From: an uncultured Streptomycetaceae bacterium
GTDB lineage: Bacteria; Pseudomonadota; Gammaproteobacteria; Burkholderiales; SG8-41
NCBI GenBank assembly: GCA_964641785.1
Contig: CAZXNF010000001.1
Coordinates: 8,007 to 35,884 of the forward strand
Length of the DNA: 27,878 bases
Direction: 5' to 3'
Under the pieces are notes generated by a model. That model did not search any database and had not been told where the DNA came from. It saw only the letters and a program-made list of their open reading frames with translations. Made by a program: the position numbers and the translations under genes. Of this stretch, positions 11,177 through 26,232 are shown one piece after another. The stretch's first letter is position 1. The number at the start of each line of letters is the position of its first letter.

Positions 11177-12145
11177 CTATTCCGCCTTGATGTTGGCGTC
11201 CTTGATCACCTTCGCGTAGCGCGGGATCTCGGCGCGCAGCAGCGCGGCGAACTGCTCGGGCGTGTTCGCACTGATGTCGACGCCCATTGCGACCAGCCGC
11301 TCGCGCGTCTCCGGCTGGTTCAGCACCTTGGCCACGTCCTGCTGGATGCGCCTGACGAGGTCCGGCGGCATGCCAGCGGGTCCCAGAAATCCGTACCACG
11401 TCGCGATCGCGAAGTCCTTGAACCCGGACTCCGCGATGGTCGGCACTTCCGGCACCAGCGGCGAGCGGGCCACGCTCGTATTCGCCAGCGCCCGCAGCCT
11501 GCCGTTCTGCACGTGGGGCAGCGCCACCGGCAGGTTGCCGAACATGATCGGGATCTGGCCGCCGACCGTATCCGCGATGGCCGGCCCTTCGCCCTTGTAG
11601 GGCACGTGGTTCATGCGGATGCCGAGCAGCGCGTTGAGCAATTCGCCGGTCATGTGCGGCGTCGAGCCGATACCGCCCGAGCCGTAGGTCAGGGTACTGC
11701 CGCTCTTTTTTGCGAGCGCCACAAATTCGCGGAAGGTCCTGGGCGGGAACGACGGATGCACGATCATCAGCAGCGGCGTCGAGCCGATGAGCGTGATCGG
11801 CGCGAAATCCTTGAGCGTGTCGTACGGCGCCTTGCCGTACAGAGCCGGCGCCACCGCCAGCCCCGACTGGAATCCCGTCATCAGCGTGTAGCCGTCAGGT
11901 ACCGCTTTCGTGAGCAGTTCGCCGGCGATCATGCCCGTCGCGCCGGGACGGTTGTCGACGATAACGGTCTGTCCCCACAGTTCGGTCAGCCGCTGCGCGA
12001 CGATGCGGGTGATGACGTCGGTTGCGCCACCGGGGCTGAGGCCGATCAGGATGCGTACCGGTTTGACAGGATAATTCTGCGCAGCTGCCACACCCGCGCC
12101 CAGCGTGCCCACGACGAACGCCGCGGCGAGAAAAAGTCGTTTCAT
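11177..12145 (-). CDS. Bug/TctC family substrate-binding protein
   Basis: YPVKPVRILIGLSPGGATD, PDGYTL, GSGGIGSTPH, HVPYKG. GAGGAGGGG SD before the ATG at 12145. Confidence 0.95.
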   Translation of the reverse strand: MKRLFLAAAFVVGTLGAGVAAAQNYPVKPVRILIGLSPGGATDVITRIVAQRLTELWGQTVIVDNRPGATGMIAGELLTKAVPDGYTLMTGFQSGLAVAPALYGKAPYDTLKDFAPITLIGSTPLLMIVHPSFPPRTFREFVALAKKSGSTLTYGSGGIGSTPHMTGELLNALLGIRMNHVPYKGEGPAIADTVGGQIPIMFGNLPVALPHVQNGRLRALANTSVARSPLVPEVPTIAESGFKDFAIATWYGFLGPAGMPPDLVRRIQQDVAKVLNQPETRERLVAMGVDISANTPEQFAALLRAEIPRYAKVIKDANIKAE

Positions 12146-24014: not shown

Positions 24015-25148
24015 ATGACCAAGCAGAGAAGTGATGCCATGGGCGATCTCGCCGCGCTCGAGCGCGCGATCGCCGCCAGCCCTTACGACGCGCTCGTCGC
24101 CGTCTCCCCGGAAAACGTGCGTTACGTCGGCGACGTGCACATCGACACCCAGCGCCGCATCCGCGACCGCCTCGCCTTCATCATCTGGCCGAAGCACGGG
24201 CAACCGGTCTTTCTGGTGTGCGAGATGGAGGCGTCCTACGTCCGCGCCAACAGCTGGATCACGGAGGTCCGCACCTACCAGGAGTTCGTCGAGGATCCGA
24301 TGGCCGTGCTGGCCGGCATCCTGCGCGAACTCAAGGCGGATGCCGGACAGGTCGCGGTCGAGACCGCCTACCTCGCCGCCCGCTATTGCGATGAACTCAA
24401 GCGGCAGTGCCCGCAACTCGCCATCAGCCCGGCCGAGCCGCTACTGGCGAAAGTACGCATGTTCAAGACGCCGCGCGAGAAAGCGCAGATCATCTTTGCC
24501 TTCCAGGCCACCGAGAAGGCGTTCCTGCATGCCTTCTCCACCGCCAAGGTCGGCGAGCCGGAACGCGACATGGCCATACGGCTGGCCGAGGCCATCCTGG
24601 CCGAAGGCGCGGACCTGATCAACGCCAACCACTGCAACGCCGGTACTAACACCAGCTTCCCGCACATGGCGCCCTCGGACTACCGCCTGCAGAAGGGCGA
24701 CATCCTGAAGGGAGATTCGGGCGGCTTGTTCAAGCAGTATCTGTCGAACGTTGGCCGCACGGCCAAGCTCGGCAAACCGACGGACGAGGACCTGTCGATC
24801 TGGGGCAAGCTGCGCGAAGTGCATCACAAGGTGATCGATCAGTGCCGGGTGGGCAAGACTGGCCGCGAACTGTTCGAACTGGCCAAAACCACGCAGATCG
24901 GGCTCGGCCTGCCCTTCACCTACTCACACAACGGCCACTCCATCGGTCTGAACGGCCACGAACACCCGATCATCAACCCTCACGAGGAAATCCCGTACGA
25001 GGTGGGCATGCTCACGACGGTGGAAACCCGCGTGCGTTTCGCGGGCAAGGTCGGCTACCACATGGAAGACATCATCGAGATCACCGACGGCCCCCCGATC
25101 TGGCACGCCAAGTACTTCCCGAACGAGGAACTGCTGGTCGTCGACTGA
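24015..25148 (+). CDS. M24 family (Xaa-Pro aminopeptidase / creatinase fold) hydrolase
   Basis: Creatinase_N-like start (SPENVRYV), RMFKTPRE, FPH, GDILKGDSG...SNVGRT, GHSIGLNGHE, TVE, MED. Start may be 24039. Confidence 0.9.
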   Translation: MTKQRSDAMGDLAALERAIAASPYDALVAVSPENVRYVGDVHIDTQRRIRDRLAFIIWPKHGQPVFLVCEMEASYVRANSWITEVRTYQEFVEDPMAVLAGILRELKADAGQVAVETAYLAARYCDELKRQCPQLAISPAEPLLAKVRMFKTPREKAQIIFAFQATEKAFLHAFSTAKVGEPERDMAIRLAEAILAEGADLINANHCNAGTNTSFPHMAPSDYRLQKGDILKGDSGGLFKQYLSNVGRTAKLGKPTDEDLSIWGKLREVHHKVIDQCRVGKTGRELFELAKTTQIGLGLPFTYSHNGHSIGLNGHEHPIINPHEEIPYEVGMLTTVETRVRFAGKVGYHMEDIIEITDGPPIWHAKYFPNEELLVVD

Positions 25149-25171
25149 GCGTCGGCGCCAGCGGGCGCGCC

Positions 25172-25399
25172 TCAGGGGGCGGGCTTGGGCATGCCCCACT
25201 TCATGCGCATGCTGGCGTTCTGGCAAGTGCTGTTGAGATCGTCCCGCAAGGCTTCGTCGGTCAGCACCGCCGGCGCATCGAGGAATCCCTCCTTCACGAG
25301 TTTTTTCTCGATCTCCTGCCAGCCGAAATGCTGGCCTGACTCCGCCATCTGCCGGGCGATCTTGGTGATATCGGCACTGCGATCTGAATCGGGTTCCAT
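25172..25399 (-). CDS. Small hypothetical protein (75 aa)
   Basis: GGAGGT SD 5 nt upstream. Helical-looking sequence (ARQMAESGQHFGWQEIEKKLVKEGF...LRDDLNSTC) with typical GC3-rich codons. Confidence 0.75.
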   Translation of the reverse strand: MEPDSDRSADITKIARQMAESGQHFGWQEIEKKLVKEGFLDAPAVLTDEALRDDLNSTCQNASMRMKWGMPKPAP

Positions 25400-25435
25400 A
25401 GGGCACCTCCACCGGCACGGTAAATCCAGAGAACG

Positions 25436-25663
25436 CTGCAGCTTAGGGCGATATCGTAGCGCCAGCGAAGGTCAAAACGCACGCTCTTCTTCAGCAGCGT
25501 GCGCCGTGTCGCCCCTGTAGGAGAAAGTCAGCCTCACGCTGACAGGTACGCCTGCCGGACAGTGAGACGATGCGGGTGTCGGTTGCGCTTCTCCCTGGGC
25601 GCGCAGATCCGACACTGGCCCGCCGGCTCAAGTCCCCTGTCTTCGCCGGCGGGCTTTTCTTTT
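25436..25663 (+). ncRNA. Candidate structured small RNA; 5' boundary uncertain
   Basis: Four to five hand-paired stems with G-U pairs that work only on +, a gUACGc tetraloop, CU-rich loops, and a 10-bp terminator with a U-tract. No convincing CDS here. Confidence 0.55.
25618..25663 (+). terminator. Rho-independent terminator
   Basis: GCCCGCCGGC / GCCGGCGGGC 10-bp stem followed by TTTTCTTTT. Confidence 0.85.
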
Positions 25664-25851
25664 GCCCCCCTCGCTACGCGCGATCCTGTCGATACCGGCC
25701 GACCTCCTGGCGAAAAATACCGGCAGTAGTAATCCCCATTTCCGTCGCTCCCCTATCCGCGCTGGACGCGCTGAGAGGCAACGACTGGCGGATCCAGATC
25801 GACGACGCGATGAACCGGATCTCGCAGCCGGGCGGCCGGATCTACGTACGT

Positions 25852-25879
25852 AAAAAAGCCCGGTCCGAAAACACCGGGC
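25852..25879 (-). terminator. Rho-independent terminator of the 25906-26232 gene
   Basis: Minus strand GCCCGGT-GTTTTCGG-ACCGGGC followed by TTTTTT, 26 nt after the stop. Confidence 0.85.
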
Positions 25880-25905
25880 CGGGCCTTCCGTCGCGCCGCT
25901 ACCGG

Positions 25906-26232
25906 TTACATCCGGCCGCTAGGGCTCGAATCTCGTGAACCCGCGTACGGCGCGGACGGATCAGCACTCGCGTTCGGATTCTGGTCGTAGCCAGACCGCG
26001 AACGCGCATCGCGGTCGTACTGCGTGCCGGTGTTCGCCTGGTTGAACGCCTTCTGGCGATCCCGGTTGGACAATGCGCCGGGGCCGGGGGCGGACCCTTC
26101 GCTGACGCCGCCGTTCTCGTTGAAGTCATTGGAACTGCGCGACGGCGGCTGGACCATGGTCTGACTGAACGCGAATTGCGCGCCCAGCGTCAGGGTCGAA
26201 GCGAGCAGCAGGGTGGTGAGGGATTTGTGCAT
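25906..26232 (-). CDS. Small secreted, low-complexity (likely disordered) protein
   Basis: GGAG SD. Sec signal MHKSLTTLLLASTLTLGAQFAFS, then a polar S/N/G/D/R-rich mature region. It has its own terminator. Confidence 0.8.
   Translation of the reverse strand: MHKSLTTLLLASTLTLGAQFAFSQTMVQPPSRSSNDFNENGGVSEGSAPGPGALSNRDRQKAFNQANTGTQYDRDARSRSGYDQNPNASADPSAPYAGSRDSSPSGRM

What the first reader, a model, noticed from the sequence alone, without database searches (positions are those of the whole stretch)
25436..25663. Candidate novel ~230-nt multi-domain small RNA with CU-rich (anti-SD-like) loops and a possible pseudoknot
Seen on +: (1) a long stem CUGCAG+GGGCGAUAU (25436-25454) pairing with GUGUCGCCC+CUGUAG (25506-25520), with three G-U pairs that would be A-C on the other strand, enclosing an 8-bp hairpin CGCACGCU/AGCGUGCG with loop CUUCUUCAGC; (2) GUCAGC-CUCAC-GCUGAC, whose loop complements GUGAG (25562-25566); (3) CAGG-UACG-CCUG; (4) GUGUCGG/CCGACAC with an inner stem and loop UUCUCCCU; (5) a terminator with loop UCCCCUGU and a U-tract. 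The terminator loop CCUGUC also complements GACAGG (25541-25546). No gene follows on +, so it looks like a stand-alone RNA rather than a leader. Established: trans-acting sRNAs such as AbcR, cuckoo RNAs and RNAIII use CU-rich loops against SD sequences, often of transporter genes. Inference: an undescribed sRNA. UCCCCU matches the AGGGGA in the SD regions at 12145 and 16300, but 6 nt is weak evidence. I could not match it to any family I know.
Basis: partly seen in the sequence, partly recalled or inferred. Interest (0 to 1): 0.72.

Follow-up and report, generated by a model that had tools for sequence, protein, structure and literature searches.

The report
Clade-restricted candidate small RNA, strand unresolved
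A structured, non-coding stretch of about 150-190 bases, conserved only in a small group of uncultured Burkholderiales, most likely encodes an ordinary regulatory small RNA that blocks ribosome-binding sites, but no expression data exist and the transcribed strand is not settled.

Summary
Only part of the region is conserved.

- **Homologues:** I found six distinct full-length copies: the window, one sister species and four metagenome versions. They share a core at 25514-25664, plus a short 5' hairpin and two promoter-like boxes upstream.
- **Loop-2/GUGAG pairing:** it is conserved and covaries, but as a nested helix that competes with hairpin 2.
- **Rfam:** no family reaches threshold. The best resemblance is anti-hemB/ncS04 at 18-26 bits against a cut-off of 49.5. 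A true anti-hemB copy with the same two-CU-rich-loop design lies elsewhere in this genome.
- **For the + strand:**
  - A perfectly conserved intrinsic terminator and U-tract.
  - Conservation stops right after the terminator.
  - The flanks beyond the terminator are unrelated, so no conserved minus-strand promoter is visible.
- **For the minus strand:** the same helices pair somewhat better there (94% against 87.5% of cells).
- **Limits:** no RNA data are available, and target matches are exploratory.

Verdict: a plausible new member of the known class of anti-Shine-Dalgarno sRNAs, of modest interest.

The parts
25443..25448 (.). Conserved box 1 (TTAGGG here; TTAGGC or TCAGGC in the relatives). 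It lies 17-18 nt upstream of box 2 across an unconserved spacer. It could be the -35 of a + strand promoter, the -10 region (TAAGCT on the minus strand) of the 75-aa gene promoter, or both.
   Evidence: Alignment A5; sequences of L078 and L081; spacing measured and by eye. The promoter role is inferred; the consensus scan found no sigma-70 site.
25467..25484 (.). Conserved box 2 (GAAGGT CAAAAC GCACGC; TAAGGT or TAAGGC in the relatives). It is a candidate -10 plus start region of the + strand RNA. On the minus strand it reads TTGACC, which is -35-like.
   Evidence: Nearly invariant in all six copies. Function is inferred.
25478..25503 (+). 5' hairpin (8 bp in the window). The core CACGC/GCGUG is kept in 5 of 6 copies, and loop length varies from 3 to 18 nt.
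   Evidence: folds of all six copies; absent in L044.
25516..25529 (+). Conserved single-stranded stretch UGUAGGAGAAAGUC (UGUAGGA is invariant). This is the start of the conserved core.
25527..25571 (.). 5' domain. It consists of a base (GUC/GAU) plus helix A (25531-37 with 25562-68) enclosing the variable hairpin 3 (25543-46/25551-54).
   Evidence: Three pairs change on both sides. 80% of cells are paired on + and 85% on the minus strand. The hairpin 2 stem that competes with helix A decays in the relatives.
25577..25614 (.). Hairpin 4. The outer stem is GUCGG/CCGAC, the inner stem GCGC/GCGC, and the apical loop 25589-25600 (UUCUCCCUGG) is nearly invariant. On + this loop is anti-Shine-Dalgarno-like.
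   Evidence: Two middle pairs change on both sides.
25618..25663 (+). Intrinsic terminator. It has a 10-bp all-G/C stem (25618-27/25645-54), a 17-nt CU-rich loop (13-18 nt in the relatives) and the U-tract UUUUCUUUU (25655-63).
   Evidence: The stem and U-tract are identical in 6 of 6 copies and sequence similarity ends right after them. The scan tool flags the site on +.
25172..25399 (-). 75-aa ORF, always adjacent to the element and divergent from a + strand RNA. It is a real coding gene.
   Evidence: 84-85% aa identity among copies, GC3 of 0.78-0.86, and most substitutions at codon position 3. No Pfam family.
25700..25853 (+). Remnant of an 84-aa ORF that is intact in G001, L045 and L044. 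The window copy has internal deletions of roughly 200 nt.

Best explanation
This is most likely a stand-alone sRNA gene on the + strand.

- **Transcript (inferred):** transcription starts near 25478, just after the conserved TAAGGT-like box, or the RNA is processed near 25514. It ends at the intrinsic terminator at about 25663. That gives roughly 185 nt, with a conserved core of about 150 nt.
- **Architecture:**
  - A variable 5' hairpin.
  - A long irregular hairpin (helix A domain).
  - Hairpin 4, whose nearly invariant loop is UUCUCCCUGG.
  - A terminator hairpin with an unusually large CU-rich loop.
- **Mechanism (inferred by analogy, not shown):** the two CU-rich loops pair with Shine-Dalgarno regions (GGGAG/AGGGAGA-type) of target mRNAs and block translation initiation, probably with Hfq bound to the U-tail. 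This is the mode described for Burkholderia ncS04/anti-hemB and the double-hairpin sRNAs.
- **What is shown:** conservation, partial covariation, the terminator, the loop motifs and the absence of coding potential.
- **What is inferred:** the strand, the start site, the targets and Hfq dependence.
For: 1. The terminator stem and U-tract are identical in six distinct copies, and similarity stops immediately after them.
2. Beyond the U-tract the flanks are unrelated, so a minus-strand RNA has no conserved promoter:
   - In the window and G001 the 84-aa gene's own promoter region lies there.
   - In L045 the 84-aa gene's ATG lies about 24 nt away.
   - In L044 and L078 the stop codon of a 185-aa gene lies 9-20 nt away.
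   - In L081 the upstream gene's own intrinsic terminator ends about 33 nt before the element.
3. Upstream on + there are two conserved boxes at a fixed 17-18-nt spacing across a variable spacer.
4. Both apical loops are CU-rich in every copy. The true anti-hemB of this genome (69 bits; sequence) has the same design.
5. In B. cenocepacia, anti-hemB is the Northern-confirmed, Hfq-bound sRNA ncS04 (PMC5688073).
6. The Rfam anti-hemB model gives its sub-threshold hits in the + orientation in 3 of 4 copies tested.
7. Five pairs change on both sides, against 2.2 +/- 1.1 in shuffles and 0-2 in slid controls.
8. Core z-scores range from -1.4 to -5.0.
9. Two hfq genes are present in the genome.
10. 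The element stays intact where the downstream + gene is degraded (window) or displaced (L044, L078, L081), so it is not merely that gene's leader.
Against: - No RNA evidence is available at all.
- The same 36 pairs fit the minus strand better:
  - 94.0% against 87.5% of cells are paired.
  - Shuffles reaching the observed percentage paired were 0/500 on the minus strand and 14/500 on +.
  - Mean energy of the fixed structure is -47.6 against -42.9 kcal/mol.
  - About 19 cells are C.A on + but U.G on the minus strand, against about 5 the other way.
- The putative + promoter is weak. The consensus scan found none, the -10 ends in C in two copies, and the -35 is poor.
- The two boxes can equally be read as the promoter of the 75-aa gene on the minus strand.
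- There are only six sequences from one narrow clade, so covariation statistics are thin.
Confidence: 0.5

Rival explanations
1. The functional RNA is on the minus strand. The conserved helices would form a structured leader of the 75-aa gene or an independent minus-strand RNA. The GA-rich loops (CCAGGGAGAA, AGAGGGGG) and the CU-rich stretch CUUUCUCCUACA would act as SD/anti-SD-like partners or as protein-binding sites.
For: - The same helix set has more standard pairs and a lower energy on the minus strand.
- Hairpin 3 is 91.7% paired on the minus strand against 62.5% on +.
- The element always sits directly upstream of the 75-aa gene, even where neighbouring genes were inserted or lost.
- The related hemB/anti-hemB motif had the same strand ambiguity (PMC1950547).
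Against: - No conserved sequence lies upstream on the minus strand. In L081 the upstream gene's own terminator precedes the element, and in L044 and L078 a stop codon lies 9-20 nt away.
- The conserved run AAGAAAAG before the GC hairpin is unexplained on this strand, but it is a U-tract on +.
- The minus-strand terminator-like hairpins are weak and not conserved.
- A plausible proximal promoter for the 75-aa gene (TTAGAC-N17-TAATCT type) lies between the element and the gene, so a long leader is not needed.
- Part of the G.U excess rests on all-wobble helices (L081) and on helix ends taken from the minus-strand prediction.
Confidence: 0.22
2. The RNA is on the + strand but is not an independent gene. 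The terminator would end a long transcript that reads out of the convergent M24 peptidase/TctC operon, antisense through the 75-aa gene. The conserved core would be its structured 3' end, possibly released as a 3'-derived sRNA.
For: - The stop codons of the M24 peptidase and the 75-aa gene are only 8-23 nt apart, with no terminator between them, in all copies.
- The next + strand terminator is the one at 25618-25663.
- The internal + promoter is weak.
Against: - The region 25400-25442 between the gene and the boxes is poorly conserved.
- The two conserved boxes at fixed spacing look like a local promoter.
- A 500-nt antisense 3' UTR is an unusual arrangement.
- No data are available.
Confidence: 0.1
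3. The element is a + strand cis-regulatory leader: an attenuator or riboswitch whose terminator controls the downstream 84-aa gene.
For: - An 84-aa ORF follows on + in G001 (about 90 nt after the U-tract).
- In L045 its ATG lies about 24 nt after the U-tract, with no room for a promoter of its own.
Against: - The element is fully conserved where that gene is internally deleted (window), separated by one to three other genes (L044, L079), or absent from the position (L081).
- The 84-aa gene carries its own -10-like box (TAGTAT/TAATAT) in the window, G001 and L044.
- No conserved antiterminator pairing was seen.
Confidence: 0.06
4. There is no functional RNA. The region would be a composite of divergent promoters, a terminator and fortuitous GC-rich hairpins, conserved for DNA-level reasons or simply by recent common descent.
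For: - All copies come from one narrow clade, with about 15% divergence in the neighbouring gene.
- Most stems are invariant and so uninformative: 25 of 36 pairs never vary.
- Related sequences can exceed the shuffle controls without any structure, as the tool itself warns.
Against: - The flanking non-coding DNA (25400-25442 and beyond 25664) has diverged almost completely, while the core keeps about 86% column identity.
- Five pairs show double-sided changes and slid controls give 0-2.
- Indels fall in loops.
Confidence: 0.08

Closest known systems
anti-hemB RNA (Rfam RF02837; ncS04 of Burkholderia cenocepacia)
   Same: - It is betaproteobacterial.
- It has a hairpin whose loop carries CUCCCUG, followed by a terminator hairpin with a large CU-rich loop and a U-tract. 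A shared ACGAUG motif lies just upstream.
- It shows the same strand ambiguity from covariation (PMC1950547).
- The model's sub-threshold hits fall in the same orientation.
   Different: - Scores are 18-26 bits against a gathering score of 49.5. That is within the range of plain terminators in the same genome (17-23 bits).
- The reciprocal search with my model R2 gives the true copies only 13.6-15.6 bits.
- This element has an extra 5' domain of about 60-100 nt, different stems, a different neighbourhood (a 75-aa ORF and an M24 peptidase), and a range limited to one small clade.
- Both genomes hold a separate true anti-hemB copy.
Double-hairpin 'toxic small RNAs' of Burkholderia (RF02278; ncS03, ncS05, ncS27) and NmsR of Neisseria
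   Same: Two CU-rich unpaired stretches are complementary to ribosome-binding sites, and the second hairpin is the terminator. The proposed mode of action is RBS occlusion (PMC5688073).
   Different: - There was no match to RF02278, even at E <= 10.
- This element is two to three times longer, has four helices, and is single-copy in the genome.
Alphaproteobacterial anti-SD sRNAs (AbcR1/2; cuckoo/CcsR RNAs)
   Same: This is a working analogy only, from my own knowledge: conserved C/U-rich loop motifs that pair with SD regions, often of transporter solute-binding-protein mRNAs.
   Different: There is no sequence or model similarity, the taxon differs, and the element is not in tandem copies.

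Membership tests
anti-hemB (RF02837) | Covariance-model score at or above the gathering score of 49.5 bits | tested here: not met
   22.8 bits (window), 26.3 bits (G001) and 18.4 bits (L044); L045 gave no hit at E <= 5. The true copies in the same genomes score 69 and 73 bits.
anti-hemB (RF02837) | A hairpin with a CU-rich (CCUCCCUG-type) loop, followed by a terminator hairpin and U-tract | tested here: met
   Hairpin 4 has the loop UUCUCCCUGG, and the terminator has a CU-rich loop. Compare the genome's true copy. This is a resemblance in design, not proof of homology.
anti-hemB (RF02837) | Typical location opposite or upstream of hemB | tested here: not met
   The neighbours are a 75-aa ORF with no family and an M24 peptidase. 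The context of the true copy was not examined.
Double-hairpin / toxic small RNA (RF02278) | Match to the family model | tested here: not met
   Not among the matches at E <= 10 in 25100-26000, nor in the relatives at E <= 5.
Hfq-type trans-acting sRNA (a kind, not a family) | Rho-independent terminator with a U-tail at the 3' end | tested here: met
   A 10-bp GC stem plus UUUUCUUUU, identical in 6 of 6 copies.
Hfq-type trans-acting sRNA (a kind, not a family) | Conserved, unpaired seed region | tested here: met
   The loop CUCCCUG is invariant apart from its flanking bases, and the terminator loops are CU-rich in all copies. The loops stay mostly open in the MFE folds.
Hfq-type trans-acting sRNA (a kind, not a family) | Own promoter and a discrete transcript | tested here: inconclusive
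   Two conserved boxes lie at 17-18-nt spacing, but there is no sigma-70 consensus match. No RNA run holds the locus.
Hfq-type trans-acting sRNA (a kind, not a family) | hfq present in the genome | tested here: met
   Two Hfq-domain ORFs score above the cut-off.
Riboswitch / transcription attenuator (cis leader) | A regulated gene immediately downstream on the same strand in the homologues | tested here: not met
   On +, the downstream 84-aa gene is deleted, displaced or absent in 4 of 6 contexts. On the minus strand the 75-aa gene always follows, but a proximal promoter-like site lies between the two.

The most novel reading that the evidence does not exclude
The conserved helices are read on the minus strand, or on both strands. 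On this reading the locus encodes a previously undescribed structured RNA that governs the clade-specific 75-aa protein. Remote relatives of that protein include a small ORF directly behind an ECF sigma factor gene. The + strand terminator would then belong to an overlapping antisense sRNA, giving a two-strand RNA module.
Probability: 0.15. Interest if true: 0.55.

Novelty: new member of a known kind. Interest (0 to 1): 0.33.

Why it matters
If it is expressed, this would add a new, lineage-specific family to the anti-Shine-Dalgarno sRNAs of Betaproteobacteria. It may be an enlarged offshoot of anti-hemB/ncS04. These organisms encode very many periplasmic solute-binding proteins, which are the usual targets of such RNAs.

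It also illustrates that covariation alone cannot assign the strand for GC-rich hairpin RNAs. The practical value is limited: the hosts are uncultured, the element occurs in only a few closely related genomes, and the mechanism would be a familiar one.

Tried and rejected
**Searches for homologues**
- Rfam at gathering thresholds gave nothing.
- BLAST of the region against 60 relatives found only the sister species.
- Model R1 against 150 genomes of the family found only G000 and G001.
- The pattern scan of metagenome contigs gave 17 loci, all chance. The best lies inside an AMP-binding enzyme ORF.
- The pattern scan of genome contigs gave only G001 plus chance hits.
- Model R2 against the own genome gave one other hit (22 bits), which lies inside a Cu/Zn superoxide dismutase gene and is therefore chance.
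- Four remote relatives of the 75-aa protein (92 clusters at E <= 1e-3) were checked. Their upstream regions are short and hold no match to R2.

**Expression**
- No RNA holder was listed among the public runs.
- Read laying on four DNA runs returned only contigs of the same strain, with one C>T difference at 25436.

**Promoters**
- I looked by eye for sigma-E, sigma-54 or ECF-type promoters upstream of the element. None was consistent across copies.

**Small ORFs**
- ORFs 25499 and 25570 are rejected. The ATG at 25570 is ATT in L045 and ATA in L081, and indels shift the frame.

**Targets**
- An exploratory scan for 8-10-nt complements of loop 4 at SD distance found genes for SBP_bac_5, SBP_bac_3, TctC and DctP binding proteins, plus FlhD, COX3 and an enoyl-CoA hydratase.
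- No enrichment test or conservation check was possible, so this is a list of leads, not evidence.

**Pairing with the 75-aa gene**
- Pairing of the loops with the translation start region of the 75-aa gene is not conserved among copies.

Full report
**What is in the window**

As a single + strand RNA the 233-nt stretch folds to -104.2 kcal/mol, with z = -2.58 and 4 of 200 dinucleotide shuffles folding as well. The minus strand gives z = -1.73.

The region lies between two landmarks:
- The 5' end of a 75-aa ORF on the minus strand (25172-25399).
- A + strand intrinsic terminator: a 10-bp G/C stem at 25618-27/25645-54, followed by UUUUCUUUU.

The 75-aa ORF is a real gene. Its copies are 84-85% identical, GC3 is about 0.8, and most substitutions fall at codon position 3. 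It converges on an M24 peptidase gene (24015-25148), and the two stop codons are only 23 nt apart.

**Known families**

No Rfam family reaches its gathering score anywhere in the window. A permissive search gives one weak + strand match to anti-hemB (RF02837): 22.8 bits against a gathering score of 49.5. It covers hairpin 4 and the terminator.

**Relatives**

The genome is an 82%-complete MAG of an uncultured Burkholderiales lineage.
- BLAST and a covariance model found the element in only one sister species (G001) among 60 relatives and 150 family genomes.
- Pattern scans of the metagenome and genome collections gave only chance hits.
- The neighbouring 75-aa protein led to further metagenome contigs.

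In all there are six distinct full-length copies: the window, G001, L045, L044, L078 (identical to L079 and L080) and L081. A fragment (L082) was also found. All were recognised by model R2 at 145-172 bits. They differ by about 15% in the adjacent gene.

**What is conserved**
- The core 25514-25664 is conserved, with about 86% column identity.
- DNA on both sides of the core has diverged beyond alignment.
- Similarity stops exactly after the U-tract.
- Upstream of the core, only two short boxes (25443-48 and 25467-84) are kept. Their spacing is a fixed 17-18 nt across an unconserved spacer.
- A small hairpin follows the boxes. Its core CACGC/GCGUG is kept in 5 of 6 copies, and its loop ranges from 3 to 18 nt.
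Its 5' arm overlaps box 1, and its 3' arm lies in a segment that is missing or different elsewhere.
- The complementarity between the terminator loop and GACAGG is also specific to the window.

**Structure of the core**

Four helices are supported.

1. *Helix A.* This is 25531-37 with 25562-68, extended by GUC/GAU at 25527-29/25569-71.
   - It covaries: C-G to G-C at one position, and U-A, C-G and A-U at another.
   - The stem of hairpin 2, which competes with it, accumulates mismatches.
   - The two are therefore alternatives, not a pseudoknot.
2. *Hairpin 3.* It sits at the tip of this domain and is variable.
3. *Hairpin 4.* It has invariant outer and inner stems, two covarying middle pairs, and a nearly invariant loop UUCUCCCUGG.
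4. *The terminator.* Its stem is invariant. Its loop is unusually large (13-18 nt) and is CU-rich in every copy.

Over 36 pairs and six sequences, 5 pairs show changes on both sides. Column shuffles give 2.2 +/- 1.1, and slid controls give 0-2. This is real but thin support, because 25 pairs never vary.

**Which strand**

This is the main open point. The same 36 pairs were counted on both strands.

| Measure | + strand | Minus strand |
|---|---|---|
| Cells forming a standard pair | 87.5% | 94.0% |
| Mean energy of the fixed structure (kcal/mol) | -42.9 | -47.6 |
| Structure conservation index (consensus energy / mean MFE) | 0.75 | 0.77 |

- Mean MFE is the same on both strands.
- About 19 cells are C.A on + but U.G on the minus strand. 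They lie mostly in hairpin 3, at two positions of helix A, and at the base of hairpin 4.
- About 5 cells go the other way, notably G.U becoming A-U at 25527/25571.
- Counted as events rather than cells, the ratio is roughly 10 to 4, which is suggestive only.

Features other than base pairing favour the + strand:
- The terminator and its U-tract are perfectly conserved and mark the end of similarity.
- In the minus direction the sequence upstream of the element is unrelated among copies. It holds the 84-aa gene's promoter region in the window and G001, that gene's ATG about 24 nt away in L045, a stop codon 9-20 nt away in L044 and L078, and the upstream gene's own strong terminator about 33 nt before the element in L081. 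A conserved minus-strand promoter therefore has no place.
- Candidate minus-strand terminators are weak and not conserved.
- The two boxes with fixed spacing lie upstream in the + direction. However, they can also be read as the promoter of the 75-aa gene (-35 TTAGAC-like, 17-18 nt, -10 TAATCT-like), and the consensus scan calls no sigma-70 site.

**Comparison with anti-hemB**

The genome holds a true anti-hemB copy on another contig (69 bits), and G001 holds one too (73 bits). That RNA has a hairpin with the loop CACCUCCCUGA and a terminator with a 15-nt CU-rich loop, preceded by ACGAUG. This is the same layout as hairpin 4 plus the terminator here.

What the literature says:
- Weinberg et al. 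(PMC1950547) reported the same strand ambiguity for hemB/anti-hemB. They proposed the terminator-bearing direction as a non-coding RNA.
- Sass et al. (PMC5688073) confirmed it in B. cenocepacia as the 105-nt sRNA ncS04. They cite Hfq binding and describe CU-rich unpaired stretches of several sRNAs that cover ribosome-binding sites.

Membership is nevertheless not met:
- The scores (18-26 bits) are no better than those of plain terminators in the same genome.
- The reciprocal search gives only 13.6-15.6 bits.
- The genomic context differs.

I therefore treat anti-hemB as the closest analogue and a possible distant relative, not as the family of this element.

**Other readings**
- *Leader of the downstream 84-aa gene.* This is unlikely. 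The element is intact where that gene is internally deleted (window), displaced (L044, L079) or absent from the position (L081). The gene also has its own -10-like box.
- *Structured 3' end of a long read-through transcript from the peptidase operon.* This cannot be excluded.
- *Coding potential.* This is excluded, because start codons and frames are not kept.

**Targets**

AGGGGA occurs at chance frequency in the window. A crude genome scan found perfect 8-10-nt complements of loop 4 at SD distance before genes for four periplasmic binding proteins, and before flhD, cox3 and an enoyl-CoA hydratase. Such genes are very numerous here and no control was possible, so these are leads only.

**Verdict**

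- The most likely reading (about 0.5) is a new, clade-restricted member of the known class of anti-SD, terminator-ended sRNAs.
- A minus-strand function remains a serious alternative (about 0.2).
- No expression data could be obtained.

Noticed in passing
window 25700-25853 (+): This is a remnant of an 84-aa ORF that is intact in G001, L045 and L044 (75-79% aa identity among those). The window copy has lost about 200 nt internally, so it is a pseudogene here.
   Followed up: partly
L046 1498-1625 (-) = G000:C523:2072-2169; L054 in G001: A true anti-hemB RNA (69 and 73 bits) lies here. It is preceded in both genomes by GGGAACTT-N16-TCATAA, which resembles a sigma-E-type promoter. I do not know of a report linking anti-hemB/ncS04 to sigma-E.
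   Followed up: no
L047 1327-1441 (-) = G000:C445: An intergenic stretch with two CCUCC-type motifs (AACUCCUCC, ACCUCCUCCUUUGG) lies directly before a terminator hairpin and a U8 tract. It may be another anti-SD sRNA candidate.
   Followed up: no
window 25172-25399 (-); L085: The 75-aa protein has no Pfam family. It has 92 remote relatives (60-180 aa, E of 1e-9 to 1e-3). One of these lies directly downstream of an ECF sigma factor gene, and several are N-terminal parts of proteins of about 175 aa. It may therefore be a small regulatory (anti-sigma-like) domain.
   Followed up: partly
window 25148-25172: The convergent M24 peptidase and 75-aa genes end 8-23 nt apart in all copies, with no terminator between them. 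Their transcripts must overlap, or must end inside the opposite gene.
   Followed up: no
window 25857-25880 (-): A clean minus-strand intrinsic terminator follows the 108-aa ORF (25906-26232). The equivalent terminator is kept in L081, where it sits about 33 nt before the element.
   Followed up: partly
L044, L078-L081 compared with the window: The gene content next to the U-tract varies among close relatives: an 84-aa gene, a 185-aa BamE-like gene, a 107-aa gene, or three small genes. The segment just beyond the terminator is therefore a hotspot for small insertions and deletions.
   Followed up: partly
window 25436: A C>T difference appears in one metagenome run (X15).
   Followed up: no
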